Shown: piece after piece, positions 2,736 through 51,300 of the stretch
How the letters are laid out: the number at the start of each line of letters is the position of its first letter
How positions within the stretch are numbered: the stretch's first letter is position 1
Assembly (NCBI GenBank): GCA_965231015.1
Contig: OZ246408.1
Location: 481,237-545,236, forward strand
Reading direction: 5' to 3'
Source of the DNA: an uncultured Gammaproteobacteria bacterium
GTDB lineage: Bacteria > Patescibacteriota > Patescibacteriia > UBA9934 > CAZDDW01
DNA length: 64,000 nucleotides
Made by a program: the position numbers and the translations under genes
The notes under the pieces: model-generated
Database searches by the model: none
What the model was told of the DNA's origin: nothing
Seen by the model: the letters and a program-made list of their open reading frames with translations, nothing else

Positions 2736-2849
2736 ATGAAAGTTCGTGCATCTGTAAAAAAGCGATGTCGTGATTGTAAAGTAATCCGTCGGCACGGACG
2801 AGTTGTTGTGGTTTGTAAAAACCCTCGACATAAACAGCGTCAAGGATAA
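2736..2849 (+). CDS. rpmJ: 50S ribosomal protein L36
   Basis: This 37-aa ORF ([37 protein letters not shown]) is below the ORF-track cutoff. The L36 zinc-ribbon pattern is present. Confidence 0.9.
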
Positions 2850-2851
2850 CT

Positions 2852-3238
2852 ATGGCACGTATCGCCGGTGTAACACTTCCAGCCGATAAACGAATCGTGA
2901 TTGCCCTCACGTATATTTATGGTATTGGATCGACCCGATCAAAGAAAATTTTAAAGGAAGCAAAAGTTGATGAAAGTGTTCGAACCAAAGATTTAACCGG
3001 AGAGCAGGAAACAGCAATTAGAAATGTTTTAGAGAAAACTTATCGTGTTGAAGGTGAACTTCGGCGCGATGTTTTACAAGATGTTAAACGATTAAAAGAG
3101 ATCGGTTGTTACCGGGGTGACCGTCACACCAAAAATCTGCCTTCCCGTGGCCAGCGAACCAAAACCAATTCACGAACTCGCCGCGGAAACAAACGGCAGA
3201 CTATGGGAAGTGGACGCCGTGCTCTTACTAAGACCTAA
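2852..3238 (+). CDS. rpsM: 30S ribosomal protein S13
   Basis: The sequence [26 protein letters not shown] with a basic C-tail matches S13. Confidence 0.95.
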
Positions 3239-3240
3239 TT

Positions 3241-3636
3241 ATGGCTCAGAAAAAGCAGGTAAAAAGCAAAAAGAAAAAAGCTGTACGGCACGTTTCACAA
3301 GGACGCGCTTACATTCAGGCTACTTATAACAACACTATCGTGACTTTGACTGACTTGAACGGTAATACGCTCGCTTGGTCAAGTGCAGGGAAGTGTGGTT
3401 TTAAGGGTCCGAAAAAAGCAACCCCGTATGCTGCTAGTGTGATCGTAAAAAATGCCGCTGAAATGGTGGCGGACAGTGGCCTGCGGGATGTATTTGTTTA
3501 TGTAAAGGGAGTTGGATCAGGACGTGATTCAGCTGTTCGTTCTCTTAACGCAAATGGATTTAATGTAACCGGAATTCAGGATATGACCCCGATTCCGCAT
3601 AATGGGTGCCGTCCACCGGGACCACGACGAGTATAA
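3241..3636 (+). CDS. rpsK: 30S ribosomal protein S11
   Basis: The motif TYNNTIVTLTDLNGNTLAWSSAG....ATPYAA matches S11. Confidence 0.95.
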   Translation: MAQKKQVKSKKKKAVRHVSQGRAYIQATYNNTIVTLTDLNGNTLAWSSAGKCGFKGPKKATPYAASVIVKNAAEMVADSGLRDVFVYVKGVGSGRDSAVRSLNANGFNVTGIQDMTPIPHNGCRPPGPRRV

Positions 3637-3638
3637 AT

Positions 3639-4250
3639 ATGGGACGAACAATGATGCCAACTTGTAAGATGTGTCGACGCGAAGGTGTTTCGCTTTGTGG
3701 TCGGGAAAAGTGTGCCGTAAAGCGTCGTTCTTTTACACCGGGTCAGCACGGTCCGGGGCGACGACCACGATTGACCCCCTACGGACAGCAGCTGCGAGAA
3801 AAGCAAAAAGCCAAGCGTTTTTATAACGTAATGGAGCGTCAGTTTAGAAATTATTTTGCTAAGGCTAACAGCATGAAAGGGAATACCGGTGAGTTGCTGG
3901 TTCGCATGTTGGAAATTCGCCTGGACAACGTGGTTTATCGACTCGGTTTTGCCAGCACTCGTCGGCAAGCACGTCAGATGGTCAACCATGCCATGTTTGA
4001 GGTGAATGGACAAAAGGTAGATATTCCTTCCTATCAAGTAAAAATCGGTGACACTATCAACATTCGAGCGAACAAAGTCGACAAAAAAGTGTTCGAAGGT
4101 CTTCAGGAGCGACTGGCTAAGCTAGAGGCTCCTTCTTGGCTTCACATGGACGCCAAAGCTCTGTCAGGTAAAGTTACATCTTTGCCAGAAGGTGAGGACC
4201 TAAAACAAGTCTTTGATACCAAACTAATCGTTGAGTTTTATTCACGATAA
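3639..4250 (+). CDS. rpsD: 30S ribosomal protein S4
   Basis: An N-terminal zinc-ribbon (CKMCRREGVSLCGREKC) is followed by an S4 domain. The start was set at the ATG directly after the rpsK stop. Confidence 0.9.
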   Translation: MGRTMMPTCKMCRREGVSLCGREKCAVKRRSFTPGQHGPGRRPRLTPYGQQLREKQKAKRFYNVMERQFRNYFAKANSMKGNTGELLVRMLEIRLDNVVYRLGFASTRRQARQMVNHAMFEVNGQKVDIPSYQVKIGDTINIRANKVDKKVFEGLQERLAKLEAPSWLHMDAKALSGKVTSLPEGEDLKQVFDTKLIVEFYSR

Positions 4251-5758: not shown

Positions 5759-6163
5759 ATGGCTGAAACAGTAAAAAAATACATTGAAGCAATTGGGCGA
5801 CGCAAGTCTGCAGTAGCTCGAGTTCGTTTGTTTGAGAAAGGGAAGGGAACTGTGATTGTGAATGAGAAAGACGCCAAGGAATTTTTTCCAGTAGATGAGC
5901 TGCAAGCCATGATGGTTGAACCGTTTACTGCGGTTGGACTGGAAGGAAAGTTTGATGTTTCTGCTAAAGTTTCTGGTGGTGGAATTCGTGGACAGGCTGA
6001 AAGTGTGCGACTCGGAATCGCCCGAGCGCTTGTAGAACGCGATCCGGAAATGCGAACCTCGCTTAAGAAACTTGGATATTTGAAGCGTGATCCACGATCA
6101 CGAGAGAGAAAGAAGTTCGGCTTGAAAGGTGCTCGACGAGCTCCACAGTGGAGCAAGCGATAA
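5759..6163 (+). CDS. rpsI: 30S ribosomal protein S9
   Basis: The motif GRRKSAVARVRL....GGGIRGQAESVRLGIARAL...KRAPQWSKR matches S9. Confidence 0.95.
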   Translation: MAETVKKYIEAIGRRKSAVARVRLFEKGKGTVIVNEKDAKEFFPVDELQAMMVEPFTAVGLEGKFDVSAKVSGGGIRGQAESVRLGIARALVERDPEMRTSLKKLGYLKRDPRSRERKKFGLKGARRAPQWSKR

Positions 6164-6178
6164 ATTCAGAATACAAAA

Positions 6179-6206
6179 CAGACCCCGTTCGGACGGGGTC
6201 TTTTGG
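6179..6206 (+). terminator. Rho-independent terminator after rpsI (AGACCCCGTTCGGACGGGGTCTTTTGG)
   Basis: A perfect 9-bp GC stem and tetraloop are followed by a T-run. Confidence 0.8.
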
Positions 6207-6260
6207 TCATCGAATAAATCTTCGGAGAACAACTATGTATTATCGTGTTATAATACAAAC

Positions 6261-6296
6261 GGGCAAATTTTTACGATCGTGAGATTCTGCCTGGAA
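6261..6296. repeat. 36-nt repeat copy A (GGGCAAATTTTTACGATCGTGAGATTCTGCCTGGAA) immediately upstream of PaaX-like gene
   Basis: There are about 31 matches over 36 nt with copy B at 6828..6863. The two copies bracket the CDS 6316..6813. Confidence 0.7.
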
Positions 6297-6315
6297 ATGT
6301 TAATTGAATAAGAAT

Positions 6316-6813
6316 ATGTCGGAAACAATTGAAATGTTGAAGGATTTAATGCATATGACTGGAGTTGCATTATCGTCCGGTCGGCATATGCCTTCGACCT
6401 CGATTCTCAGCAGGGCTTCCTATGAGGAAATAATGGAGAAAAGGAAGCTTTATGAGTCAAGAAAATTACTAAAACGATTAAAGGATCAGAAGTTGTTAAA
6501 GATAAAAGAAAAGGGGAATAGAATAATCGTTTCAATTACAGATAAGGGAAAATACAGATTACTCAAAAGTGATGTTTTGTACGGTGCCGAGTTCCTTTCA
6601 GGGTATAAGGTGTGTCTTGTTAGTTTCGATATACCAGAACATGTCCGGGCTAGCCGTGATGTGTTGCGAGCTTTTTTAAAAGAGGCGGATTTCGAGCAGG
6701 TGCACAGAAGTGTTTGGAGGACAAAATATGACGTTGTTAAACCATTAAAAGAATTGATTGATAATCTCGGAATAGGAGATTGGGTTAAGGTTTATGTAGC
6801 TAACGAGGTTTGA
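6316..6813 (+). CDS. PaaX-like mini regulator: N-terminal winged-helix + Cas2-fold (beta-alpha-beta) domain; paralog of 16047..16541
   Basis: The N-terminus has a wHTH-like segment (LKRLKDQKLLKIKEKGNRIIVSITDKGKYRL). The C-terminal segment (VCLVSFDIPEHVRASRDVLRAFLKEADFEQVHRSVWRT) matches the Cas2/PaaX-middle-domain pattern (hhhhSYDI..RR.V.+.L...GF..lQ.SVW). Confidence 0.55.
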   Translation: MSETIEMLKDLMHMTGVALSSGRHMPSTSILSRASYEEIMEKRKLYESRKLLKRLKDQKLLKIKEKGNRIIVSITDKGKYRLLKSDVLYGAEFLSGYKVCLVSFDIPEHVRASRDVLRAFLKEADFEQVHRSVWRTKYDVVKPLKELIDNLGIGDWVKVYVANEV

Positions 6814-6827
6814 TTAGTGATAGATCT

Positions 6828-6863
6828 GGGCAAAATATTACGATCGTGAATTTTTGCCTGGAA
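6828..6863. repeat. 36-nt repeat copy B (GGGCAAAATATTACGATCGTGAATTTTTGCCTGGAA) immediately downstream of PaaX-like gene
   Basis: See copy A. Confidence 0.7.
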
Positions 6864-6982
6864 TCTGTTTAGTATTTATCTGGTCTTTAGGTATTCTAGT
6901 AAAGAATATAAAAAATAAAAACACTGAACCTCGCATGAGTGGTGCGGGGTAGTTGGCCGGGAAGGTCTAGTTGGTGACGGGA

Positions 6983-7240
6983 TTATTGTTGGAGAACAAA
7001 CCGATCACATGCAGGATGTTTGTCGGCCTGTTGAGAGGCACCTTGATCGGTTCGCCCTTGATATAGAACCATTCCTCCACATGCGTTTGCCTTCTTGATC
7101 CACCCGAAGTTATTGGTTTCCGGCTGCCTGTCACGATGCCAGTCGTGCTTCCAGGAGTTATGTTTGTCAGTCAGAGCTTGGTGGAGCCTCTCCAGCTGAT
7201 CCGCACAGAGTTCCAATTTGTCAAGGTTGTCCCTCGACAA
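6983..7240 (-). CDS. GC-rich orphan ORF (TTG start), probable gene relic of foreign origin
   Basis: This 85-aa ORF lies in a locally GC-rich ~300 bp patch between the PaaX-like gene and wzx. No recognisable domain was found. Confidence 0.2.
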   Translation of the reverse strand: MSRDNLDKLELCADQLERLHQALTDKHNSWKHDWHRDRQPETNNFGWIKKANACGGMVLYQGRTDQGASQQADKHPACDRFVLQQ

Positions 7241-7263
7241 TTAGCCCAAAAATAAGGTAAAAT

Positions 7264-9808: not shown

Positions 9809-10497
9809 TTAGTATAATTATTCCAACTTATAATGATGCGGAATTTTTACCTCTATGCTTAGAATCAGTATTTGGTCAGACCTTTCGGGATTTCGAGATC
9901 ATCGTAGTCAACGATGGATCAACGGACAATACTAAAGAAATTTTATCGAGCTACGAAAACCAGATTAAGGTCATTCATCAGGAAAACACGGGGCGCAATC
10001 CTGCCCGCATGCGCGGCTACGCTGAAGCGAATGGGGACTATCTATTATTTCTCGATTCAGATATTGAAATGGAACCGGACATGCTTGAGAATTTGTATCG
10101 AGCTCTTGAAACAAGCCCGGACGCGTCTTTTGCTTATGGTCAGTTCGTTTTTGGCAATAAAATGTTTTCGAGTTTTCCGTATGATCCGGAGCTTCTCAAA
10201 AAGATGAACTATATTCACACCTCAGCTCTAATTCGCCGAGCCCATTTTCCTGGGTTTGATCCAGAGATTAAAAAATTTCAGGATTGGGATGTGTGGCTCA
10301 CCATGCTCGGGCAAGGTCACACCGGAGTGTATGTTCCGAAGCTTGTGTTTAAAGCTCACGTAGATGGACAAGCCCTATCAAAATGGTTGCCCGCGTTTGT
10401 ATACAAGATTCCGTGGAAGTATCTTGGCTGGACACCAAAAAGAATTCGAGAGTATGAGGAAGCAAAAAGAATAATACAAAATAAACATAGCATATAG
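9805..10497 (+). CDS. glycosyltransferase family 2
   Basis: The motif MISIIIPTYNDAEFLPLCLESVFGQTFRDFEIIVVNDGSTD plus a DSD motif matches GT2. Confidence 0.85.
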   Translation: MISIIIPTYNDAEFLPLCLESVFGQTFRDFEIIVVNDGSTDNTKEILSSYENQIKVIHQENTGRNPARMRGYAEANGDYLLFLDSDIEMEPDMLENLYRALETSPDASFAYGQFVFGNKMFSSFPYDPELLKKMNYIHTSALIRRAHFPGFDPEIKKFQDWDVWLTMLGQGHTGVYVPKLVFKAHVDGQALSKWLPAFVYKIPWKYLGWTPKRIREYEEAKRIIQNKHSI

Positions 10498-10499
10498 CA

Positions 10500-10537
10500 C
10501 GTCGCAAATCGCTCGTCGTCCAGAAACGACATGCGAC
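10500..10537 (+). promoter_or_regulatory. palindromic leader element (CGTCGCAAATCGCTCGTCGTCCAGAAACGACATGCGAC) in 5' UTR of GT2 gene; second copy at 29627..29664
   Basis: A second copy with about 38/42 matches lies in the equivalent position upstream of another glycosyltransferase gene. It has nested inverted repeats (GTCGCA...GTCGT / ACGAC..GCGAC). Confidence 0.5.
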
Positions 10538-10562
10538 AAGCGACGCGCAACGTGTGATATAT

Positions 10563-11420
10563 ATGAACGACGTTTCGATTATTATTGTGAACTATAAAGT
10601 CGCCGATCTAGTGGAACGGTGTATTGCTTCGGTTTATGAATATACCAAAGGAGTGAATTTTGAGATCTATTTAGTCGACAATGCTTCAGGAGATGATGTG
10701 GTGCCGCGCATTAGCTCGAAATTTCCCGAGGTCAACATTGTAGCCAACAACAAGAATCTAGGTTTTGCCGCGGCCTGTGATCAGGGAATTGAGCTCTCAC
10801 GCGGTGAGTTTGTGTTGTTATTGAATCCTGATACCGAGCTCAAGGATGACGCGATCAGTCAGGTAGTCTCGAAGATGCAAACGGATAGGGAAGTTGGAGT
10901 TGGGGGTGTGCACCTGGTGAACCCGGACGGAACCCACCAGAGTTCAGGGGTGCGGCGTTTTCCGGGCGTACTCGATCAGTTGCTGATTATGCTCAAGATT
11001 CCGCATCTGTTTGGCGAAGTCGGACCGGTGAAACGGTATTTAATGTCGAATCTCGATTACGCCGAGTCGCAAGATGTGGACCAAGTCATGGGCGCGTTCT
11101 TCTGCATCCGCCGGGAGTTAATGCAAAAAATCGGTATGCTCGACCCTGGATTTTTTATCTGGTTTGAAGAGGTGGATTTTTGTAAACGAGCCGTCGATTC
11201 AGGATATCGAGTTCGTTACTATGCGGATATTGACGTCGTGCATCATCGCGGCGCGAGCTTCGGCCAAGTTGCCACGATCAAGAAACAACGCTGGATCCGC
11301 AACAGTCTGCGCAGATATATCCGCAAGCACAAAGGTGTACCTGCGTGGTTGCTCTTTGTCCTGCTCGAGCCCGTGTTTATCGTTCTCGCAATCATGGCTC
11401 AAATAATTAAACCGAAATAA
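10563..11420 (+). CDS. glycosyltransferase family 2
   Basis: The motif MNDVSIIIVNYKVADLVERCIASVYEY....YLVDNASGDD matches GT2. The tracked ORF starts at a GTG at 10554; the ATG at 10563 is preferred. Confidence 0.85.
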   Translation: MNDVSIIIVNYKVADLVERCIASVYEYTKGVNFEIYLVDNASGDDVVPRISSKFPEVNIVANNKNLGFAAACDQGIELSRGEFVLLLNPDTELKDDAISQVVSKMQTDREVGVGGVHLVNPDGTHQSSGVRRFPGVLDQLLIMLKIPHLFGEVGPVKRYLMSNLDYAESQDVDQVMGAFFCIRRELMQKIGMLDPGFFIWFEEVDFCKRAVDSGYRVRYYADIDVVHHRGASFGQVATIKKQRWIRNSLRRYIRKHKGVPAWLLFVLLEPVFIVLAIMAQIIKPK

Positions 11421-12582: not shown

Positions 12583-14316
12583 ATGTCCAAAACCCCCAAC
12601 TACGACGCGAAAGTTAAAGCTATCCTCGACGAGCTCACGCCCGGCGAGCGGGTTTGTGAGTTGACCGGGGAGAAGTGGAAGATGACCGAGCGAGAGATTA
12701 GTTGGTACAAAAAGTTCAACGTCCCGCCATCCAAGTACTCGCCGCTCACACGATGGCGGCTCATGACGTCTTTCTTCTGTGGTTGGCAATGGTGGTATAA
12801 TCCGCACCCGAAAACAGGGAAGCCGGTGTTGAGTTATATCCATCCAGCAAGCGGATACAAGGTGCTGCCAGATAATGAGTGGTATGATACAGACTTCAGT
12901 GAAATATCTGCGAAATATAATCCCGATCGTTCGTTTTTTGAACAATTTGACGAGTTTAATAAACAAATTCCTCAATCTGCATCCAAAGATGTAAAGGAAT
13001 CCTATAATTCAATCACAGTAGTTTCGCTTGGAGATGAGGATAGCTATTTTGTTTTAGCCAGCAACACCAAGCGGTCAATCAATTGTTCTTGTGCCAAAGA
13101 TACAGAGGACTCGGCAGAAGTTTATTGGTCAACGAAGGTTCAGAAGTCATATAATATTGTTAATTCACACCGGGTTCATAATTGTAAATATTTACGTGAA
13201 TGTTTTAATTGCCTTAATTCATCTTTTTTGTTTGATTGTAGAGATTGTGAAGATTGTTTTGGGGCTGCTAACAAGCGTCACAAAAAGTACTTATGGTTTA
13301 ATGAACAATTGAGTGAGGGTGAATACCGTCAAAGATTAAAAGAAGTTGATCTCAGTTGTCGCTCCGGGCTTGAAAAATACATTGAGCGTTTCAAAACAAT
13401 GATTACCGAAGAAAGTGTTTGGCCAGAAAATTTTAATGATGCCGTTGAAAACTGTACGGGTGAATATCTTGAAGGGTGCACCGATCTTGATTATTGTTTT
13501 GCCTGCAATCCCGGATCAAGAAACTTGTATTATTGTTCCTTTGTCCACGGTGCTTCCAATGATTGTGCTTTTTGTTGTGGCCCGCACTCGAGTAATTTAT
13601 GTTATTACACCATTCCGTCAGAGTGTTCAAGATCATATTTTTGTTATGAGACTTTCAAATGCAGTAATGTTGAATATTGCATGAATTGTATTAATTGTGA
13701 ACATTGTTTTGCATGTTCCGGTTTACAACACAAAAGGTTTTGTATCTTTAATCGGCAATATCCAGAATCAGAGTATTGGCAAAAGCTCGATGAGATTAAA
13801 TCAAACATGCTCGAGCAAGGAGATTACGGCGAATTTTTTCCCGCCCAGTATGCGCCTGGTTATTTTCCTGATGCAGGGGCTCTCGTTTTTGATGCTCAGG
13901 ATATGGGCAAAAAGTTTGGTGCATTAGAATACGACCCTGAATCGCTTGGTGCTATTGGGGAAGAACTCGCCGATATCTCGAAGATGCGAGACACAAGCGA
14001 AGTACCCGACTGTATTGATGAAATGGCCTTGGATGACTGGACTGACATTCCGGTGTATGATTCAAAGATTAATCGGCGGTTTTCTTATTTGCGCCCGGAA
14101 ATAGATTTTTATAAAAAGAACAGGATCGCTCCGCCCAATGTGCATTTTATTCCACGGGTTAAGCAGTTATACTGGGAAGGGAACACAGGAGTATTTGTTG
14201 ATGCTCGTTGTGCCAAATGTGATCAGGAAATTATGGTGGCTCGAAATAAGACCTACCCAAACCGAACTATCTATTGCAAACCTTGTTACCTAGAGTATCT
14301 TGAACAATATGGGTAA
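12583..14316 (+). CDS. cysteine-rich protein with 7-residue periodic repeats (Cys at fixed heptad position) and C-terminal CxxC...CxxC zinc-ribbon
   Basis: In this 577-aa protein, residues ~165-400 form heptads with Cys repeatedly at the 4th position. Examples are INCSCAK / FNCLNSS / FLFDCRD / CEDCFGA and VENCTGE / YLEGCTD / LDYCFAC / YYCSFVH / FCCGPHS / YCMNCIN / CEHCFAC. There is no signal peptide. Confidence 0.65.
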   Translation: MSKTPNYDAKVKAILDELTPGERVCELTGEKWKMTEREISWYKKFNVPPSKYSPLTRWRLMTSFFCGWQWWYNPHPKTGKPVLSYIHPASGYKVLPDNEWYDTDFSEISAKYNPDRSFFEQFDEFNKQIPQSASKDVKESYNSITVVSLGDEDSYFVLASNTKRSINCSCAKDTEDSAEVYWSTKVQKSYNIVNSHRVHNCKYLRECFNCLNSSFLFDCRDCEDCFGAANKRHKKYLWFNEQLSEGEYRQRLKEVDLSCRSGLEKYIERFKTMITEESVWPENFNDAVENCTGEYLEGCTDLDYCFACNPGSRNLYYCSFVHGASNDCAFCCGPHSSNLCYYTIPSECSRSYFCYETFKCSNVEYCMNCINCEHCFACSGLQHKRFCIFNRQYPESEYWQKLDEIKSNMLEQGDYGEFFPAQYAPGYFPDAGALVFDAQDMGKKFGALEYDPESLGAIGEELADISKMRDTSEVPDCIDEMALDDWTDIPVYDSKINRRFSYLRPEIDFYKKNRIAPPNVHFIPRVKQLYWEGNTGVFVDARCAKCDQEIMVARNKTYPNRTIYCKPCYLEYLEQYG

Positions 14317-15895
14317 GCTGTCAAAACACTTCATTCCGAATGAACAAAGGAATCCACTGATCTCACAATTTGTTGGACCGTTGTTTTGGATTGTCTTGAG
14401 CTCGGTCTTGGTCGCGCATGTGGTTTCGTTCTTCACCCTCGGCACAGTGGCCGAATCGGTCATGGTGGTGGTAATCGGGGTTTTGGTGTTTGGTTTAAGC
14501 CTGTGGAAGCTTGAATATGGGCTTTATTTTGCCTTTGCAGAGCTATTTGTGGGCTCACATGGTCACTTATTCGATTTCGGGTGGTTCAGCGTAAGAATGG
14601 CCATTTTTGCGGCCGTGATGTTGGCTTGGTTGGTCAAATTTGTTACTCGCCGGATCGATTTCTTTTTGAAGGATTACCGGATTTATCCGTATTTACTGTT
14701 GGTTGTGTCCGTGATTATCGGAACCGCGGTCGGGCTTGTGGCCGGAAACGATAAAATGGACGTGTTTAATGACATGAACGCCTATTTGTTTCTTGGGTAT
14801 TTATTGCCAGTGCTTTCGATCCGTTGGACAGCGCTTCGTAAGCGCTCGCTTTTAGAGGTGCTGGCTGCCGGCGGAGCCTGGATCGTGGTCGAGTCACTGG
14901 CTCTGTTCTACGTGTTCACGCACGCGAGCGAAGACTTAGAGCGATTACTTTACATTTTTTTCCGTGACGCTCGTATTGCTGAAATTACACGAGTCTCCGG
15001 AGATGTGTTTCGGGTGTTCATGCAGTCACAGTTCACAGTTGTGATTGTGCTCATAATTGCCACGGCCGCACTTTTTTACTTGTGGCAACGTCACGTTAAT
15101 CGTAACTTTATTGCCTTGTCGTTGATCGGACTTTGGGCTGCAGTAATTTTGAGTATGTCACGCAGTTTCTGGGTCGGCCTCGCAGCCGGACTTGGTGTGC
15201 TAGGATTGTTTGTTCTTTTTAGTAAGGGGTATGGATTTGGAAAATTTGTCACGCGAGTTTTTCTCTCGGTTCTCATGCTTGGATCCGGCGTGTTGCTGCT
15301 TTGGAACTTGTTGGCTGTACCATTTCCGCAAGCGCTTGGGGTAGGGGACTTTGGTTCGATCTTGTCGTCCCGAGCCACAGACTTGGACGAGGCCGCAGCC
15401 CGAAGTCGTTGGAGTTTGATTGGGCCAATGATGGAACAGATTGGGCAGAGCCCGCTTGCTGGACGCGGATTTGGTACCATTGTTGAATATGAATCAGATG
15501 ATCCACGCGTACAAAAATTCTATGGTGGAGTTGCTACTACGTATGCATTTGAATGGGGGTTCCTGGATCTGTGGCTAAAGATGGGACTGCTCGGTCTGGC
15601 TGCATTTGTTTGGATCTTTGTGATGTATATTCGTTCACTCTTTGGTGCGGCTAAGACCGAGGAACACGGTTGGCTTATGCTCGCGCTTGGTTGCGGACTC
15701 ATTGCCCTTTATGCTACCCATATTTTTTCACCATACTTGAATCATCCAATCGGGCTCGGGTTTTTGGTCTTCCTAATGCCATTTTTAGATCTGACTCATC
15801 CTCATTTTTCCTTCGAATCAATTAAGGAAACCGTTAAGCAAAAAACTGCTGTGCAAACAACCACCCCGGCCATGACTTCAAAGATTGTGGATTAA
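14300..15895 (+). CDS. O-antigen ligase (Wzy_C/WaaL) family membrane protein
   Basis: It is a multi-TM protein. The central loop has an SMSRSFWVGLAAGLGVLGLFVLF motif typical of Wzy_C. It overlaps the previous gene by 17 nt. Confidence 0.6.
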   Translation: MNNMGKLSKHFIPNEQRNPLISQFVGPLFWIVLSSVLVAHVVSFFTLGTVAESVMVVVIGVLVFGLSLWKLEYGLYFAFAELFVGSHGHLFDFGWFSVRMAIFAAVMLAWLVKFVTRRIDFFLKDYRIYPYLLLVVSVIIGTAVGLVAGNDKMDVFNDMNAYLFLGYLLPVLSIRWTALRKRSLLEVLAAGGAWIVVESLALFYVFTHASEDLERLLYIFFRDARIAEITRVSGDVFRVFMQSQFTVVIVLIIATAALFYLWQRHVNRNFIALSLIGLWAAVILSMSRSFWVGLAAGLGVLGLFVLFSKGYGFGKFVTRVFLSVLMLGSGVLLLWNLLAVPFPQALGVGDFGSILSSRATDLDEAAARSRWSLIGPMMEQIGQSPLAGRGFGTIVEYESDDPRVQKFYGGVATTYAFEWGFLDLWLKMGLLGLAAFVWIFVMYIRSLFGAAKTEEHGWLMLALGCGLIALYATHIFSPYLNHPIGLGFLVFLMPFLDLTHPHFSFESIKETVKQKTAVQTTTPAMTSKIVD

Positions 15896-16046
15896 GATTT
15901 CCACAATCTTAATCTTGACGATCAGGTCAAACCGTGTTAAACAGAAAATAGATTATAAAAGACTCCCCAATTTTTTTTGCGGAGTTTTTATTTTCAAAAA
16001 CAGTTGTATAAACAGTTCGATCGCATCATATTTAGAACCAAAGACA

Positions 16047-16541
16047 ATGTCTGAAATTAAGGAAACATTTCTGGATTTGCTACACTTGGCTGGTATGGCA
16101 ATGAGTAATGGTCGGCATATGCCTTCGACCATGTTTTTAGATCGCGAGTCATATAACAGATGGTGTGAAATACAGGAAAGAAAGAAGATGAAACGCTTCA
16201 AATATGAAATAAAACGGCAGAATATTCTTAAAATAGAAGAGAGACACAATGAGATAATTTTACATATATCGCAAAAAGGAAAGCTTGAAGCCCTGAAACA
16301 GCAGATAATGAGCACAGAAGATGAACTACCAAAAGGACAATTGTGTGTTGTGAGTTACGATATTCCAGAGATTGCAAAAAAGAGCAGGGCGGTTTTTCGG
16401 GGGTTTTTAAAACGATCAGGATTTGCTCAGTTGCATAAAAGCACCTGGCATACGAGAAAAAATGTTGTTAAAACACTTAAGCAGTTGATCGATAAACTAG
16501 AGATCAATGAATGGGTTTCTGTTTTTCATGTTGTTGGTTAG
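16047..16541 (+). CDS. PaaX-like mini regulator (wHTH + Cas2-fold domain), paralog of 6316..6813
   Basis: It begins MSEIKETFLDLLHLAGMAMSNGRHMPSTMFLDRESY, versus MSETIEMLKDLMHMTGVALSSGRHMPSTSILSRASY in copy 1. The C-terminus reads LCVVSYDIPEIAKKSRAVFRGFLKRSGFAQLHKSTWHT. The tracked ORF starts upstream at 15885; the ATG at 16047 is preferred. Confidence 0.55.
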   Translation: MSEIKETFLDLLHLAGMAMSNGRHMPSTMFLDRESYNRWCEIQERKKMKRFKYEIKRQNILKIEERHNEIILHISQKGKLEALKQQIMSTEDELPKGQLCVVSYDIPEIAKKSRAVFRGFLKRSGFAQLHKSTWHTRKNVVKTLKQLIDKLEINEWVSVFHVVG

Positions 16542-16608
16542 TGGTTGTAAAAATAGTGCGATCGCGCGTTTTCTGAAACCAGATTGCGTGATTCTATTTA
16601 TTGGAATA

Positions 16609-29074: not shown

Positions 29075-29617
29075 ATGAAACGTCTATTTCTAGCTATAAA
29101 ATTGCCGCCAGAGGTTAAAGGGGTTCTTTATGGAATGCAGGATGACATGAAGAAGGTTTTTAAGCATTCTAAAATAACCTGGGTGGATCCGGAGATTGCT
29201 CATATCACGCTTCAGTTTCTTGGTGATGTGCTTGAAGAAGATCTTGAGTCATTGATCTCGGAAATTAGGGCAGGGGAGTACCCTGAACCGTTTGAGCTAG
29301 AAACGCGTAGCACATCTTGTTTTCCAAATCCGAAAAAACCAAAAACACTCTATATCGAGACCTCAAACCATACAGCCGCAACCGGGTTGCACAAAAGATT
29401 GTCAAAAATTTTGGTGGAAAACGGGTTTGAAATCGATGATCGTCCCTGGGTGCCACATATCACACTTGGACGAGTTAAGACTCAATCCGAGACATATCCG
29501 TCAGAAGGTTTCGAGGTTGAGCCGGTTAGTTTTGAAGTTGACTCGTTTGAACTTCTTGAGTCTGATCTGAGCGAAGACGGACCAATTTATACAACTCTTG
29601 AAATTTTTAAACTATAG
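29075..29617 (+). CDS. thpR: RNA 2',3'-cyclic phosphodiesterase (2H phosphoesterase, LigT/ThpR family)
   Basis: It carries two H-x-T/S-x motifs (HITLQFLG and HITLGRV) in a 180-aa protein. Confidence 0.8.
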   Translation: MKRLFLAIKLPPEVKGVLYGMQDDMKKVFKHSKITWVDPEIAHITLQFLGDVLEEDLESLISEIRAGEYPEPFELETRSTSCFPNPKKPKTLYIETSNHTAATGLHKRLSKILVENGFEIDDRPWVPHITLGRVKTQSETYPSEGFEVEPVSFEVDSFELLESDLSEDGPIYTTLEIFKL

Positions 29618-29626
29618 CCAATCGTT

Positions 29627-29664
29627 CGTCGCAAATCGCTTGTCGTTCTGAAACGACGTGCGAC
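29627..29664 (+). promoter_or_regulatory. second copy of palindromic leader element (CGTCGCAAATCGCTTGTCGTTCTGAAACGACGTGCGAC), followed by (GCGATAT)x3 tandem heptamer
   Basis: See 10500..10537. Here it sits about 21 nt upstream of the TagA-like start codon. Confidence 0.5.
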
Positions 29665-29685
29665 GTGCGATATGCGATATGCGAT

Positions 29686-30459
29686 ATGATACAAATCCTA
29701 GGAGTGAAAATTAGCATGCTCGATAAAAAAGCTGTTCGTGAGGCCTTGCGTTCTTATCTTGAGTCAGACCGTCAGTATTACGTAGTCACCCCGAATCCGG
29801 AAATGGTGGTTCGGGCTCGACGCGATAAAGAGTTTCGTGAAATTTTGAACGGGGCGGATTTAGCTATTGCTGATGGAGTCGGGTTGCAACATGCTGCGTC
29901 ACTGAATCGCGACAAGTGGCCACCACGAATAACCGGAAATGATGTCATGCAAATGTTGGCAGAAATTTGTGCGGGATCCGGCAAGAAAATTTTTTTGCTC
30001 GGCGGAGAAAAAAACGATGTAGCAAAAAAGTCAGCTGATTTGTTAAAAGAAAAATATCCCACGCTTGAGATCGGGCATGATCCAGCCGGACCAGTGTATT
30101 TTGAACATGGAGAATGGCACATGAATCCGGCAGTGATTGATCGGCTCAAAGAGTTTGAACCAGATTGTTTGCTCGTAGCCCTTGGGCACGGCAAACAAGA
30201 ACGTTGGATCACGAAATTTATGCCTCATTTACCGAGTGTAAAAGTGGCCGTGGGGATCGGTGGAGCTTTTGACTATCTGGCCGGAGCAGTAGAGCGAGCG
30301 CCTGAAGCTATGCGAAGCGTGGGGCTCGAATGGCTATTTAGGTTGTACAAAGAACCGAAAAGATTTAAGCGGATCATGAACGCGGTGCTTGTCTTTCCAA
30401 TTCTCGTTATTTGGAGTAAAATAAGACCTCAAAATAAAGTTAAAAAGGATAAAGGATAA
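29686..30459 (+). CDS. WecB/TagA/CpsF-family glycosyltransferase (N-acetylmannosaminyltransferase-like)
   Basis: The sequence MIQILGVKISMLDKKAVREAL...YVVTPNPEMVV...LGHGKQERWI matches the family. The tracked ORF starts at a GTG at 29665; the ATG at 29686 is preferred. Confidence 0.8.
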   Translation: MIQILGVKISMLDKKAVREALRSYLESDRQYYVVTPNPEMVVRARRDKEFREILNGADLAIADGVGLQHAASLNRDKWPPRITGNDVMQMLAEICAGSGKKIFLLGGEKNDVAKKSADLLKEKYPTLEIGHDPAGPVYFEHGEWHMNPAVIDRLKEFEPDCLLVALGHGKQERWITKFMPHLPSVKVAVGIGGAFDYLAGAVERAPEAMRSVGLEWLFRLYKEPKRFKRIMNAVLVFPILVIWSKIRPQNKVKKDKG

Positions 30460-30462
30460 AGT

Positions 30463-31935
30463 ATGTCAATTCGAACCAGATTTGCACCGTCACCAACCGG
30501 ATATTTGCACATTGGAGGTCTTAGAACCGCCCTTTATAACTATTTGCACGCTCGCCATGAAAAAGGGGAGTTTATATTACGCATTGAAGACACTGACCGC
30601 GAGCGTTATGTTGAAGGAGCGGTGGAGGGATTGATTGATGCTTTGAATCGCTGTGGGTTGGATTACGATGAAGGCCCGGTATTAAACGGGGACGTTGTTG
30701 AGCAAAAAGGGAAGAAGGGGCCGTATATACAATCGGATCGAGTTGATACTTATCGAGAACACGCAGAGGCCTTACTCGTTAAAGGTCATGCCTACCGTTG
30801 TTTTTGTTCGCCCGAGCGGCTTGAGTCTATGCGCAAGGAGCAACAGTTAGCCAAAATGCCAACTAAGTATGACCGGCATTGCATGAACTTGAGCGAGGAG
30901 GAAGTAGTGAAGAAAATTGAGCTCGGAGAGCCATTTGTGGTGCGGATGAGGGTGCCGGAAGGGGAGACCGTGATGGAAGATGTGATTCGTGGCAAGGTCA
31001 AGTTTCCTAATGCAGAGGTGGATGACCAGGTTCTGTTAAAGTCTGACGGTTTTCCAACTTATCATTTGGCCAATGTGGTTGATGACCACTTAATGGAAAT
31101 CACCCATGTGATTAGGGGAGAGGAGTGGTTGAGCTCAACGCCCAAGCACGTGATTTTATACAACATGCTGGGATGGGATGTTCCAACGTTTGCTCACCTG
31201 CCTTTGATTTTGAACCCGGACAAATCTAAGCTCTCTAAACGTCAGGGTGATGTAGCGGTTGAGGATTATCTGGTCAAGGGTTATTTGCCGGAAGCCTTGC
31301 TAAATTTTGTGGCCACGCTTGGGTACAACCCAAAGGGTGACCAAGAGATTTACTCTATGGACGAGCTGGTAAAATTATTTGATTTATCTAAGGTAAATTC
31401 TTCAGGGGCAGTTTTTAACACGGAAAAACTCAACTGGCTCAATGCGCATTACATCAAAGAAAAAGATATAGATGAGCTGGTTGATTTGGTTCAGTACTTT
31501 CTTATTCGCGCGAATAAGAAAGTGGAAGAGGGTAGGCTCGAGAAAATTGTCACTGTCGAACGCGAGCGCTTAACTCGGCTGGATGAAATCGTTGACCTAG
31601 TTGATATGTATGAAGGTTTGCCTGAATTTGCAGACCCGAATATTTTGGTTTGGAAAAAGTCAGACGCAGCTGACTCCAGAGCTATGCTAGAAGGTTTAAT
31701 TGAGCAGGTTGAGTCCATGAAAGATAGTGATTTTGCTGAGCTTGGCCTGGTCGAAACCGCCATAAAAAGGTATATTGAAGAAAAGGGATATGCCAATGGT
31801 AACGTTTTGTGGCCAATGCGTGTGGCATTGTCTGGGAAATCTGCTTCTCCGAGTCCTTTTGAGTTGTCTTGGGTTTTTGGAAAAAATACGACTTTAGAGC
31901 GTTTAAAGCACGCCCTGGAAACCCTAAAAAAATAA
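30463..31935 (+). CDS. gltX: glutamate--tRNA ligase
   Basis: The motifs RFAPSPTGYLHIGGLRTALYNYL (HIGH) and KLSKRQG (KMSKS) are present. Confidence 0.9.
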   Translation: MSIRTRFAPSPTGYLHIGGLRTALYNYLHARHEKGEFILRIEDTDRERYVEGAVEGLIDALNRCGLDYDEGPVLNGDVVEQKGKKGPYIQSDRVDTYREHAEALLVKGHAYRCFCSPERLESMRKEQQLAKMPTKYDRHCMNLSEEEVVKKIELGEPFVVRMRVPEGETVMEDVIRGKVKFPNAEVDDQVLLKSDGFPTYHLANVVDDHLMEITHVIRGEEWLSSTPKHVILYNMLGWDVPTFAHLPLILNPDKSKLSKRQGDVAVEDYLVKGYLPEALLNFVATLGYNPKGDQEIYSMDELVKLFDLSKVNSSGAVFNTEKLNWLNAHYIKEKDIDELVDLVQYFLIRANKKVEEGRLEKIVTVERERLTRLDEIVDLVDMYEGLPEFADPNILVWKKSDAADSRAMLEGLIEQVESMKDSDFAELGLVETAIKRYIEEKGYANGNVLWPMRVALSGKSASPSPFELSWVFGKNTTLERLKHALETLKK

Positions 31936-43754: not shown

Positions 43755-44058
43755 GGCGTATAACGGCCGGCGGCTATGCGACGTGGTCCGGAGACGAGCT
43801 TGCTCGTCGACGGGCCATGTCCGCATAGCTGACTGTTGTGCGATGTCGCGTAGCGACGAGCGCAACAAAAGGCGTAGCCGCCGGCCGTTGTGGCGAAGGA
43901 GCGAAGCGATTTCGCCACAACGTTTGCGTGTATCTGATGTTTTGCGGAGCAAAATATGGGAGATCGAAGTGCAACGAGTGAACCGCATATGCTGTGTTAG
44001 GCGAGCCGAACGGAGTGATAGCGAAGTGAGAGTGCAACGTGCCTTTAGCGTATTTTTG
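43755..44058. repeat. GC-rich hairpin-rich repeat element R1 (core module A + module C)
   Basis: A ~170-bp core is nearly identical to R2 and R3: a 14-bp perfect inverted repeat ACGGCCGGCGGCTA...TAGCCGCCGGCCGT encloses ~90 nt, followed by the hairpin GTTGTGGCGAA..TTCGCCACAAC. Arg-rich ORFs inside it are artefacts of GC-richness. Confidence 0.8.
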
Positions 44059-45221: not shown

Positions 45222-45345
45222 CAATTTCGCCACAACGTTCCTGCGTATGCGATGTTTGCTAGTGGTATAATTGCACGAAGTGCTTACCACTGGCAAATAT
45301 GGGTGCAGTGAGGAGGAGGTACAACGACGAACGGAACCGCATATT
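45222..45345. repeat. partial repeat R2' (module B: hairpin CCAGTGGTATAATTGCACGAAGTGCTTACCACTGG)
   Basis: It is near-identical to the right half of R3. Confidence 0.7.
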
Positions 45346-45899: not shown

Positions 45900-45943
45900 A
45901 TCTTGATTGTATTAGTGTCACACAAAAATTTCACACAACGGCC

Positions 45944-46240
45944 GGCGGCTATGCGACGTGGTCCGGAGACGAGCTTACTCGTCGACGGGCCATGTCCGCA
46001 TAGCTGACTGTTGTGCGATGTCGCGTAGCGACGAGCGCAACAAAAGGCGTAGCCGCCGGCCGTTGTGGCGAAGGAGCGAAGCGATTTCGCCACAACGTTC
46101 GCGTATATCTGATGTTTTGCGGAGCGTAGCGGAGCAAAATATGGGAGAGCGACGGCAGGAGCGAACCAGATATACGCTGTTGTGCGAGGGTGAGCGACGA
46201 TAGGAGCGAAAGTGCAACGACCCCGAAGCGTATTTTTCAA
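45944..46240. repeat. GC-rich repeat element R2 (core module A + modules C and D)
   Basis: See R1. The core 45944..46115 is nearly identical. Confidence 0.8.
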
Positions 46241-51014: not shown

Positions 51015-51300
51015 TCGTATAACGGCCGGCGGCTATGCGACGTGGTCCGGAGACGAGCTTACTCGTCGACGGGCCATGTCCGCATAGCTGACTGTTGTGC
51101 GATGTCGCGTAGCGACGAGCGCAACAAAAGGCGTAGCCGCCGGCCGTTGTGGCGAAGGAGCGAAGCGATTTCGCCACAACGTACCTGCGTATGCGATGTT
51201 TGCCAGTGGTATAATTGCACGAAGTGCTTACCACTGGCAAATATGGGTGGAGGCTTGCGGAGGTACGGAGCAAGCCGTAACCGCATACGCAGTGTTAGCT
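51015..51300. repeat. GC-rich repeat element R3 (core module A + module B)
   Basis: See R1. The core 51020..51185 is nearly identical. Confidence 0.8.

What the first reader, a model, noticed from the sequence alone, without database searches (positions are those of the whole stretch)
6261..6863. wHTH + Cas2-fold (PaaX-like) mini-protein bracketed by a 36-nt direct repeat
The 166-aa protein has a winged-helix N-domain and a C-domain with the Cas2/PaaX-middle-domain beta-alpha-beta signature (VSFDIPE..R..LRAFLKEADFEQV.RSVW). It is not next to any CRISPR array or cas gene.

The same 36-nt sequence (31/36 identical) lies 20 nt upstream of the start (6261-6296) and 15 nt downstream of the stop (6828-6863). 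Each copy contains GATTC/GAATY half-sites like PaaX operators. Either this is an auto-regulatory operator pair, or the gene is a small mobile cassette with terminal repeats.
Basis: partly seen in the sequence, partly recalled or inferred. Interest (0 to 1): 0.6.

Follow-up and report, generated by a model that had tools for sequence, protein, structure and literature searches.

The report
Mini-PaaX regulator bracketed by own palindromes
A small DNA-binding protein (winged helix plus Cas2-like fold) of an ultra-small "candidate phyla radiation" bacterium has the same ~36-base palindrome just before and just after its gene, and nearly every relative in a very large, unstudied family shows the same bracket with its own palindrome version, so these are most likely the protein's own binding sites.

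Summary
Copies at 6261-6296 and 6828-6863 match 31/36. Each is an imperfect 30-nt palindrome centred on CGATCG, and no other copy occurs in the 64 kb.

The protein (6316-6813, 165 aa) passes Pfam PaaX_M. Its AlphaFold model (pLDDT 87.6) matches E. coli PaaX best, then about 20 Cas2 structures.

New result: the bracket is a family trait. About 35 of 39 testable relatives (23-100% identity; family of at least 2,300 clusters at 50% identity) carry a palindrome upstream and within 0-70 nt of the stop. Only 7 of 190 control genes do. A second paralog in the window (16047-16541) has its own pair.

Palindrome centres (CGRYCG) and the Cas2-like half are conserved. Palindrome arms and the winged-helix half diverge together. 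Conserved positions recur about 10.5 bp apart.

Best reading (0.55): a PaaX-type dimer binds two cognate dyad operators flanking its own gene and autoregulates through a loop or roadblock.

Not excluded: RNA hairpins at both transcript ends, or a selfish or mobile cassette. Syntenic empty sites exist, and one cassette is 99% identical between genomes whose flanks are 85-88% identical.

The GATTC/GAATY half-site idea is not supported. I found no paper describing this architecture.

The parts
6180..6201 (+). Intrinsic terminator hairpin of the upstream rpsI gene (context; marks the end of the ribosomal-protein operon)
   Evidence: (I10). Stem AGACCCCGT/ACGGGGTCT followed by TTTTGG.
6246..6254 (+). 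Candidate extended -10 promoter TGtTATAAT. It would place the transcription start at about 6261, the first base of the upstream palindrome copy.
   Evidence: Read from the sequence. Inference only; the two-hexamer scan did not call it.
6261..6296 (.). Upstream copy of the 36-nt repeat. The imperfect 30-nt palindrome core is 6262-6291, centred on CGATCG (6274-6279). Proposed primary operator.
6316..6813 (+). Mini-PaaX gene (165 aa; alternative TTG start at 6304). Contains N-terminal helices, a winged helix-turn-helix (about residues 33-90) and a Cas2-like beta-alpha-beta-beta-alpha-beta domain (98-163). D105, P107, R114 and S132 are invariant across the family.
6828..6863 (.). Downstream copy of the repeat, 14 nt after the stop codon. 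The palindrome core is 6829-6858, centred on CGATCG (6841-6846). Proposed auxiliary operator.
16003..16040 (.). Upstream dyad of the second paralog: GTTGTATAAACAGTTCGATCGCATCATATTTAGAACCA.
   Evidence: The upstream-versus-downstream score beats 500/500 shuffles at mismatch penalty -2.
16047..16541 (+). Second family member in the window (164 aa, 47% identical to the first). Pfam PaaX_M E=1.3e-12.
16542..16581 (.). Downstream dyad of the second paralog (TGGTTGTAAAAATAGTGCGATCGCGCGTTTTCTGAAACCA). It abuts the stop codon. The next genes downstream are on the opposite strand.
7234..7263 (+). The flippase operon's own promoter (TCGACA-18-TAAAAT). Context only: it is conserved in relatives with and without the cassette, so the downstream dyad is not needed to drive the flippase.

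Best explanation
The 165-aa protein is a truncated PaaX-type DNA-binding protein. It has a winged helix-turn-helix joined to a Cas2-fold dimerisation domain and lacks the ligand-binding C-domain.

Proposed mechanism (inferred):
- It binds as a symmetric dimer to its cognate ~30-36 bp dyad.
- The conserved Cas2-like dimer sits over the conserved centre (CGATCG).
- The fast-evolving winged helices read the lineage-specific arms.
- One dyad lies between a likely promoter and the start codon. The other lies directly after the stop codon.
- Occupancy of the upstream site represses the gene's own transcription.
- The downstream site raises local occupancy, either through a ~570 bp loop between two bound dimers or as a roadblock that insulates the unit.

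The result is a self-contained, tightly autoregulated module.

Shown here: the fold, the repeat, its family-wide conservation, and the co-divergence of palindrome arms with the N-terminal half of the protein.

Inferred only: binding itself, dsDNA as the bound form, repression, and looping.

What the module does for the cell beyond regulating itself is unknown. In at least one relative (L017) the same dyad also flanks a neighbouring gene, so a small local regulon is possible.
For: 1. Homology and fold. PaaX_M scores above its gathering cut-off. The AF2 model's best PDB match is E. coli PaaX across both domains (119 columns), followed by Cas2. IMG names one member 'DNA-binding transcriptional regulator PaaX'.

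2. PaaX precedent. PaaX is an autorepressor whose reported operator is a long dyad, TGATTC-N27-GAATCA (PMC9493321). That is comparable in span to the dyads here.

3. The bracket is a family trait. About 35/39 testable loci have it, against 7/190 control genes with a score of 15 or more (Fisher p about 8e-30). It also holds for the second paralog in this window.

4. Copies per locus. Most loci have exactly two copies and the 64-kb window has none elsewhere.

5. Concerted evolution. The two copies within a locus stay near-identical (often 100%). Orthologous loci differ in the arms. Between the window and L002, flanking genes are 84-97% identical, while the protein's N-half is 64% and its C-half 89% identical. 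Both palindrome arms changed from GGCAAA to TGTATA.

6. Family-wide dyad profile. Positions conserved are 1-3 (YCG) and 13-14 (TG), with an A/T-rich stretch at 8-11. This gives ~10.5-bp periodicity on one face of B-DNA.

7. Orientation is not fixed. In L040 and L051 the downstream copy is the reverse complement of the upstream copy. That fits a symmetric dimer better than strand-specific RNA or directional recombination.

8. The downstream copy is not a promoter for the next gene. 8 of 30 downstream genes converge on it. The flippase keeps its own conserved promoter even at empty sites.
Against: No binding, transcription or looping data exist.

- Promoter position relative to the upstream copy is not consistent across loci. 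A -10-like hexamer is no commoner upstream of the upstream copies than of the downstream copies.
- Several palindromes are perfect over 40-48 bp. When the two copies in a locus differ on both arms, complementarity is always kept (11/11, against 1/3 expected by chance). This means dyad symmetry itself is maintained. Independent half-site recognition does not require that; it points to hairpin or cruciform formation, or to templated repair.
- G.T mismatches exceed A.C on the sense strand (38 vs 18, p about 0.01, but the data are not independent). This is a weak hint of an RNA-level structure.
- A regulator whose only visible sites flank its own gene has no obvious host function.
- The invariant Asp-x-Pro (Cas2-like; absent from E. 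coli PaaX) suggests more than a passive dimerisation role.
Confidence: 0.55

Rival explanations
1. RNA-level module. Both palindromes are transcribed and fold into matching hairpins at the 5' and 3' ends of the mRNA. The protein binds them, or its Cas2-like domain cleaves them. This would give translational autorepression at the hairpin next to the start codon, and stabilisation or processing at the 3' end.
For: - The hairpins fold well: -13 to -24 kcal/mol, z-scores -3 to -9.5.
- In the window a TGtTATAAT element would start transcription at the first base of the upstream copy.
- Upstream copies often end only 5-25 nt from the start codon.
- Symmetric compensatory differences between the two copies are kept in 11/11 cases, and sense-strand G.T exceeds A.C (38 vs 18).
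- From general knowledge, some Cas2 and VapD proteins have been reported as endoribonucleases. The invariant beta1 Asp of Cas2 is retained here.
Against: - In L040 and L051 the downstream copy is inverted relative to the upstream copy.
- L017 carries a copy upstream of another gene's promoter.
- The conserved positions follow B-DNA helical periodicity, and mismatches cluster at 9-11 like a non-contacted spacer.
- The nearest characterised homologue, PaaX, is a dsDNA-binding repressor.
- There is no Rfam hit.
- The G.T excess is small and the copies are not independent.
Confidence: 0.17
2. Selfish or mobile cassette. The unit palindrome-gene-palindrome is a minimal element whose ends are recognised, and possibly cut at the dyad centre, by its own wHTH-Cas2-fold protein. 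That would allow excision, insertion or spread by recombination.
For: - Presence/absence at a syntenic site. rpsI-flippase genomes L057 and L059 lack both the gene and any palindrome.
- Neighbours are unrelated housekeeping genes.
- There are several paralogs per genome, tandem cassettes and palindrome arrays.
- In L012 vs L013, a 931-nt block holding the cassette is 99.1% identical while the flanks are 85-88% identical.
- Because each site is a palindrome, the two copies also read as terminal inverted repeats (I1).
- The Cas2-type Asp is invariant.
Against: - No target-site duplication.
- No DDE, HUH, serine- or tyrosine-recombinase domain.
- All near-identical copies sit in identical contexts.
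- The position between rpsI and the flippase is stable across relatives whose proteins are only 67-75% identical.
- The boundaries of the 99% block do not coincide with the palindromes.
- None found in viral contigs.
- The two copies in a locus are 86% identical here, not fresh duplicates.
Confidence: 0.15
3. Generic repeats unrelated to the protein, such as REP-like dispersed palindromes, protein-independent bidirectional terminators, or chance.
For: Palindromes are common in intergenic DNA. The upstream copies often follow the upstream gene's terminator.
Against: - Only two copies in 64 kb.
- No T-run follows the hairpins.
- The link to this gene family is overwhelming: 35/39 loci against 7/190 controls.
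- The sequence is lineage-specific and co-varies with the protein.
Confidence: 0.03

Closest known systems
PaaX, phenylacetyl-CoA-responsive repressor (E. coli; PDB 8a39; COG3327/TIGR02277)
   Same: Both have an N-terminal winged helix followed by a Cas2-like middle domain (PF20803 hit; best Foldseek hit). PaaX represses its own promoter and recognises a long dyad, TGATTC-N27-GAATCA.
   Different: - About half the size, with no PaaX_C ligand domain.
- TIGR02277 scores 13 bits against a cut-off of 264.
- No paa genes nearby.
- The dyad has a conserved centre (CGRYCG) and a different sequence.
- It keeps the Cas2-type Asp-x-Pro that E. coli PaaX lacks.
- The sites bracket the gene.
Cas2 (CRISPR adaptation subunit)
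   Same: - Ferredoxin-like beta-alpha-beta-beta-alpha-beta fold.
- Conserved beta1 Asp and the 'FD[IM]P...R...F..SV[FWY]' signature.
- From general knowledge, Cas2 works as a dimer that cradles duplex DNA in the Cas1-Cas2 complex.
- Associated with ~30-36-nt, partly palindromic direct repeats.
   Different: - No cas1 and no array.
- Fused to a winged helix.
- No Pfam CRISPR_Cas2 hit for this protein; PADLOC Cas2 only at E=0.011.
- Only two repeats, separated by the gene itself.
Repressors with an auxiliary downstream operator (lac O1/O2, gal OE/OI, lambda CI OR/OL). Comparison from general knowledge.
   Same: A primary operator at the promoter plus a second cognate site hundreds of bp away. 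In lambda these sites flank the repressor gene, and looping tightens autoregulation.
   Different: - Here the second site sits immediately after the stop codon.
- The arrangement is conserved across thousands of family members.
- Oligomerisation beyond a dimer is unknown.
REP/RAYT and IS200/IS605 (a small ferredoxin-fold protein gene flanked by hairpins). Comparison from general knowledge.
   Same: A single small gene of about 150 aa bracketed by palindromic sequences that its product is thought to recognise.
   Different: - No HUH motif or catalytic Tyr among the invariant residues.
- The palindromes are not dispersed in the genome.
- No evidence of transposition.

Membership tests
PaaX family repressor (TIGR02277 / COG3327) | Central Cas2-like domain (Pfam PF20803 PaaX_M) | tested here: met
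   E=1.5e-11, 44.6 bits against a gathering score of 24. The second paralog scores 48.1 bits.
PaaX family repressor (TIGR02277 / COG3327) | [quoted passage not shown] | tested here: inconclusive
   The Pfam PaaX N-terminal domain family (PF07848, named from memory) is not among the hits at E<=10; only weak hits to other winged-helix families appear. The AF2 model has a wHTH, and the Foldseek and hhalign alignments to PaaX run through it.
PaaX family repressor (TIGR02277 / COG3327) | C-terminal helical effector domain (PaaX_C) that senses phenylacetyl-CoA | tested here: not met
   The protein ends at residue 165, right after the Cas2-like domain. There is no PaaX_C hit.
PaaX family repressor (TIGR02277 / COG3327) | Full-length equivalog score | tested here: not met
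   TIGR02277 scores 13.2 bits against a cut-off of 264.55.
PaaX family repressor (TIGR02277 / COG3327) | Genomic association with paa catabolic genes | tested here: not met
   Neighbours here are a ribosomal-protein operon and polysaccharide genes. Across 57 neighbouring genes at the other loci, no paa genes were found.
Cas2 (CRISPR-Cas adaptation) | Ferredoxin-like fold with a conserved beta1 Asp | tested here: met
   About 20 Cas2 chains match in Foldseek with probability about 1. D105 is invariant in 64 diverse members and aligns to the FDMP motif of E. faecalis Cas2.
Cas2 (CRISPR-Cas adaptation) | Adjacent cas1 and a CRISPR array | tested here: not met
   No regularly spaced repeat array in 64 kb. 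The neighbours are not cas genes. cas1 elsewhere in the genome was not tested.
Cas2 (CRISPR-Cas adaptation) | Significant match to Cas2 sequence models | tested here: not met
   No Pfam CRISPR_Cas2 hit at E<=10. PADLOC Cas2 E=0.011. The PDB profile search finds Cas2 only at E about 5e-3.
Transposable element (IS / MITE / REP-RAYT) | Transposase or recombinase catalytic domain | tested here: not met
   No such Pfam or NCBIfam hit. No HUH motif or invariant Tyr.
Transposable element (IS / MITE / REP-RAYT) | Target-site duplication and multiple near-identical copies in different contexts | tested here: not met
   The flanks show no significant duplication. All pairs of loci with at least 90% identical proteins share the same flanks, except L012/L013, whose distal flanks are homologous.
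Transposable element (IS / MITE / REP-RAYT) | Presence/absence polymorphism at a syntenic site | tested here: met
   rpsI-flippase without the cassette and without a palindrome in L057 and L059. Gain and loss cannot be told apart.
Autoregulated repressor with paired operators | Protein binds both sites and represses its own promoter | not testable with these tools
   This needs EMSA or footprinting and reporter assays. The support here is only comparative.

The most novel reading that the evidence does not exclude
The module is a free-living, self-recognising Cas2-fold element. A wHTH-Cas2 dimer specifically binds, and perhaps nicks at the CGRYCG centre, the ~36-bp palindromic repeats that bracket its own gene. 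This would make it a minimal selfish or mobile cassette abundant in CPR bacteria. It would also be a living analogue of the Cas2-repeat relationship that preceded or paralleled CRISPR arrays.
Probability: 0.1. Interest if true: 0.9.

Novelty: new variant of a known kind. Interest (0 to 1): 0.6.

Why it matters
CPR/Patescibacteria have very few recognisable regulators, and almost nothing is known about how they control genes.

- **A large, stereotyped family.** This family has at least 2,300 clusters at 50% identity and 549 hits at E<=1e-10. Each gene sits between two copies of what is very probably its own recognition site. That gives hundreds of predicted protein-DNA cognate pairs for free: a specificity code for a PaaX/Cas2-fold DNA binder and a source of orthogonal repressor/operator parts.

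- **An evolutionary bridge.** The family links PaaX-type repressors to Cas2. It has the PaaX architecture but keeps the Cas2 Asp-x-Pro signature that E. coli PaaX has lost. This bears on how the Cas2 fold came to handle duplex DNA and palindromic repeats.

- **An open question.** The strict maintenance of dyad symmetry and the cassette-like distribution leave room for a mechanism beyond plain repression.

Tried and rejected
1. PaaX-like GATTC/GAATC half-sites. They are not symmetric, differ between the two copies and are absent in relatives.

2. Downstream copy as promoter/operator of the next gene. Rejected as a general rule. 8 of 30 downstream genes converge on it, paralog 2 is followed by opposite-strand genes, and the flippase promoter is conserved even at empty sites.

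3. A -10 box just upstream of the upstream copies but not the downstream copies. No difference was found.

4. Canonical terminator role. No T-run follows the hairpins, and the upstream copies are themselves preceded by normal terminators.

5. Target-site duplication around the cassette. The 22-nt match 6197/6882 is not significant; 24 of 300 shuffles score as well.

6. Known RNA family. No Rfam match to the palindromes or to the candidate leader/sRNA.

7. Defence-system or phage link. PADLOC and PHROGs gave only weak domain-level hits, and no relatives were found in IMG/VR.

8. CGATCG avoidance or enrichment genome-wide. 13 observed against 12 expected.

9. A family-wide pattern search (CA-N9-CGRYCG-N9-TG) in the window found nothing, because the window's own arms are shifted by one base.

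10. Other long palindromes in the window. The one at 31496 lies inside gltX and is unrelated.

11. Literature. No paper combines PaaX with Cas2, PaaX with Patescibacteria, or otherwise describes this bracket.

Full report
**Context**

The window carries a ribosomal-protein/rpoA operon (rpsM, rpsK, rpsD, rpoA, rplQ, rplM, rpsI). It ends at 6163 with a terminator hairpin at 6180-6201. Next come the 165-aa ORF 6316-6813 and about 450 bp of spacer. A polysaccharide flippase/glycosyltransferase operon then starts at 7264 with its own promoter. The nearest named RpsI relatives are Candidatus Uhrbacteria/Parcubacteria. The identical RpsI lies on an NCBI contig of 1,002,985 bp, so this is a ~1 Mb CPR/Patescibacteria genome.

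**Check of the observation**

- The two 36-nt copies (6261-6296, 6828-6863) are 31/36 identical.
- A degenerate 30-mer finds only these two sites in 64 kb, against 0.00 expected.
- The upstream/downstream match beats all 500 shuffles.
- Each copy is itself an imperfect palindrome, GGCAAA-N5-TACGATCGTG-N5-TTGCC-like, centred on CGATCG.
- A TGtTATAAT element at 6246-6254 would start transcription at the first base of the upstream copy. This is read from the sequence and is an inference.
- The GATTC/GAATY 'half-sites' are not symmetric, differ between the copies and are not conserved.

**The protein**

- Pfam PaaX_M (PF20803) is hit above its gathering score. No PaaX_C and no full-length PaaX equivalog are found.
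- An AlphaFold model built from 64 diverse relatives has pLDDT 87.6. It shows N-terminal helices, a winged helix-turn-helix, then beta-alpha-beta-beta-alpha-beta.
- The best PDB match is E. coli PaaX (8a39) over 119 columns spanning both domains, followed by about 20 Cas2 structures.
- A family profile weakly hits Cas2 and ArsR/AspA winged helices in PDB.
- Across 64 members at 25-75% identity, the invariant residues are D105, P107, R114 and S132.
- A profile alignment to E. coli PaaX shows that PaaX has a gap/SEG where this family has F-D-I-P-E. Genuine Cas2 has F-D-M-P there.
- So the architecture is PaaX-like, but the C-domain keeps a Cas2 signature.
- The family is large. A profile search of 1.84 billion representatives gives 2,300 clusters at E<=1e-3 and 549 at E<=1e-10, almost all 160-200 aa.
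- One member is named PaaX by IMG; the rest are unnamed.

**The bracket is a family trait**

Close relatives (67-75% identity; L002, L005, L007) have a palindrome before and after the gene. They keep the same centre ([C/G/T]ACGATCGT[G/C]) but have different outer arms. Distant relatives do the same with quite different sequences: L008 (46% identity) and L009 (37%).

I examined 46 metagenomic loci plus these. About 35 of 39 unique loci with enough flank have a 20-45-nt repeat upstream of the start and 0-70 nt after the stop. In several loci it abuts or overlaps the stop codon. Among 190 other genes in the same DNA, only 7 reach a comparable score, and one of those is flanked by the same palindrome class. 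Fisher p is about 8e-30.

A second family member in this window (16047-16541, 47% identical) has its own pair (16003-16040, 16542-16581). That pair shares only the CGATCG centre with the first. Most loci have exactly two copies. A few have arrays (L017 has six copies over 2.2 kb, also flanking a hypothetical gene) or tandem cassettes (L033).

**What the palindromes look like family-wide**

I aligned the palindromes on the dyad.

- Positions 1-3 (YCG; centre CGRYCG) are conserved.
- Positions 13-14 (TG) are conserved.
- Positions 8-11 are A/T-rich.
- Positions 4-7 are lineage-specific but symmetric.
- Mismatches between arms concentrate at positions 9-11.

This is a ~10.5-bp periodic pattern on one face of B-DNA, as expected for a dimer on duplex DNA. 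The span (30-40 bp) resembles the reported PaaX operator TGATTC-N27-GAATCA (PMC9493321).

Between the window and L002, flanking genes are 84-97% identical. The mini-PaaX protein is 75% identical overall: the N-terminal (winged-helix) half is 64% and the Cas2-like half 89%. Both palindrome copies changed arms in parallel while keeping the centre.

The simplest inference is that the conserved Cas2-like dimer covers the conserved centre and the variable winged helices read the variable arms. From general knowledge, the Cas2 dimer in Cas1-Cas2 likewise cradles the middle of a DNA duplex.

**Why two sites**

The downstream copy is not a promoter/operator for the next gene as a rule.

- 8 of 30 downstream genes converge on it.
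- Paralog 2 is followed by opposite-strand fmt/def/priA.
- The flippase promoter CTCGACAAT...AAGGTAAAAT is conserved in genomes with and without the cassette.

The relative orientation of the two copies is not fixed; it is inverted in L040 and L051. I therefore favour an auxiliary operator. It would either loop with the promoter-proximal site, as lac O1/O2 or lambda OR/OL do, or act as a bound roadblock. This step is inferred.

**Evidence that does not fit neatly**

1. Many palindromes are perfect over 40-48 bp. Where the two copies in a locus differ on both arms, complementarity is preserved in 11 of 11 cases, against 1/3 expected. Dyad symmetry itself is therefore maintained. That points to hairpin or cruciform formation (RNA or DNA) or to hairpin-templated repair.
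2. G.T mismatches outnumber A.C on the sense strand (38 vs 18). The data are not independent.
3. The Asp-x-Pro motif is invariant.
4. The unit behaves like a cassette:
 - Neighbours are unrelated housekeeping genes.
 - Related genomes (RpsI 70-76% identical) have rpsI directly followed by the flippase, with neither gene nor palindrome.
 - Between L012 and L013, a 931-nt block containing the cassette is 99.1% identical while flanking genes are 85-88% identical. This implies recent exchange.

Against mobility:

- No target-site duplication.
- No transposase-type domain.
- Identical contexts for all near-identical copies.
- A stable position across relatives with 67-75% identical proteins.
- The 99% block's boundaries do not fall at the palindromes.

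**Comparison with the known, and verdict**

The protein works like, and is related to, PaaX. It fails PaaX membership on the effector domain, the equivalog score and gene context.

It has the Cas2 fold and signature but no CRISPR context.

It is not REP/RAYT- or IS200-like in catalytic motifs or in repeat dispersal.

I found no paper describing this family or its bracket.

Verdict: the feature is real. It is a new variant of a known kind, namely an autoregulated PaaX/Cas2-fold DNA binder with paired flanking cognate dyads, and it generalises to a very large CPR family. The RNA-hairpin and selfish-cassette readings are not excluded.

Noticed in passing
window 16003-16581: A second mini-PaaX paralog (16047-16541, 47% identical) has its own flanking dyads. 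It lies after a Wzy_C-like membrane protein gene (14300-15895). About 730 bp without a called gene follow, before the convergent fmt/def/priA genes.
   Followed up: yes
L012 2560-2690; L013 1800-1915; L017 2630-2715; L019 648-730; L027, L029 (2705), L030, L033, L039: A conserved element lies next to, or inside, the brackets in one clade. It comprises a TGnTATAAT promoter, a 5' part of variable length and sequence, a conserved stretch ...AACAATTCCCAGCGATCTGACTGACTAAGAC, and a strong 13-bp terminator hairpin with a T-run. It is a candidate small RNA or attenuating leader. There is no Rfam match. The 5' part differs between L012 and L013 although the rest is 99% identical.
   Followed up: partly
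L013 2771-4131: An IS element lies just downstream of the cassette in L013 and is absent from L012. It has a 410-aa transposase-like ORF (2844-4076), 46-nt imperfect terminal inverted repeats (2774-2819 / 4081-4126) and a duplicated GTTAGCACGTTGAGCGT.
   Followed up: partly
L033 3538-3920: Immediately after a full cassette lies a 103-aa gene encoding only the Cas2-like domain (PaaX_M E=8.7e-7; weak CRISPR_Cas2 E=0.004). It is followed by a different palindrome, CACCGTTGTCGCGGCCGCGACAACGGTG.
   Followed up: partly
L058 end / L007 start; L020 1-125: The palindromes disturb assemblies. Contigs L058 and L007 (same sample) break exactly at the repeat. The start of L020 is a ~120-nt perfect fold-back around the palindrome, probably an assembly artefact.
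   Followed up: partly
window 6864-7263: About 400 bp lie between the downstream dyad and the flippase promoter, and they are absent from L002 and L007. They hold a minus-strand 85-aa ORF (6983-7240, no Pfam hit) with a terminator-like hairpin at about 6925-6947.
   Followed up: partly
window 43762-43950, 45937-46125, 51021-51209; 45224-45322 and 51168-51266: A 189-nt segment occurs three times (93-98% identity) and a 99-nt segment containing a TGGTATAAT promoter-like motif occurs twice. Both lie in a region of short minus-strand ORFs, possibly a duplicated gene family or island.
   Followed up: no
window 10487-10560 and 29614-29687: A 74-nt intergenic repeat (76% identity), rich in GCGAC/CGTCGC motifs, lies directly upstream of two glycosyltransferase-type genes (10554..11420 and 29665..30459). 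It may be a shared regulatory leader.
   Followed up: no
window 31496-31523: A perfect 28-bp palindrome, ACTTTCTTATTCGCGCGAATAAGAAAGT, lies inside the glutamyl-tRNA synthetase coding region. Its arms resemble the family's CACTTTC/GAAAGTG motif, but no family gene is nearby.
   Followed up: partly
window 12583-14316: A 577-aa Cys-rich ORF with no Pfam hit lies next to the Wzy_C-like gene.
   Followed up: no
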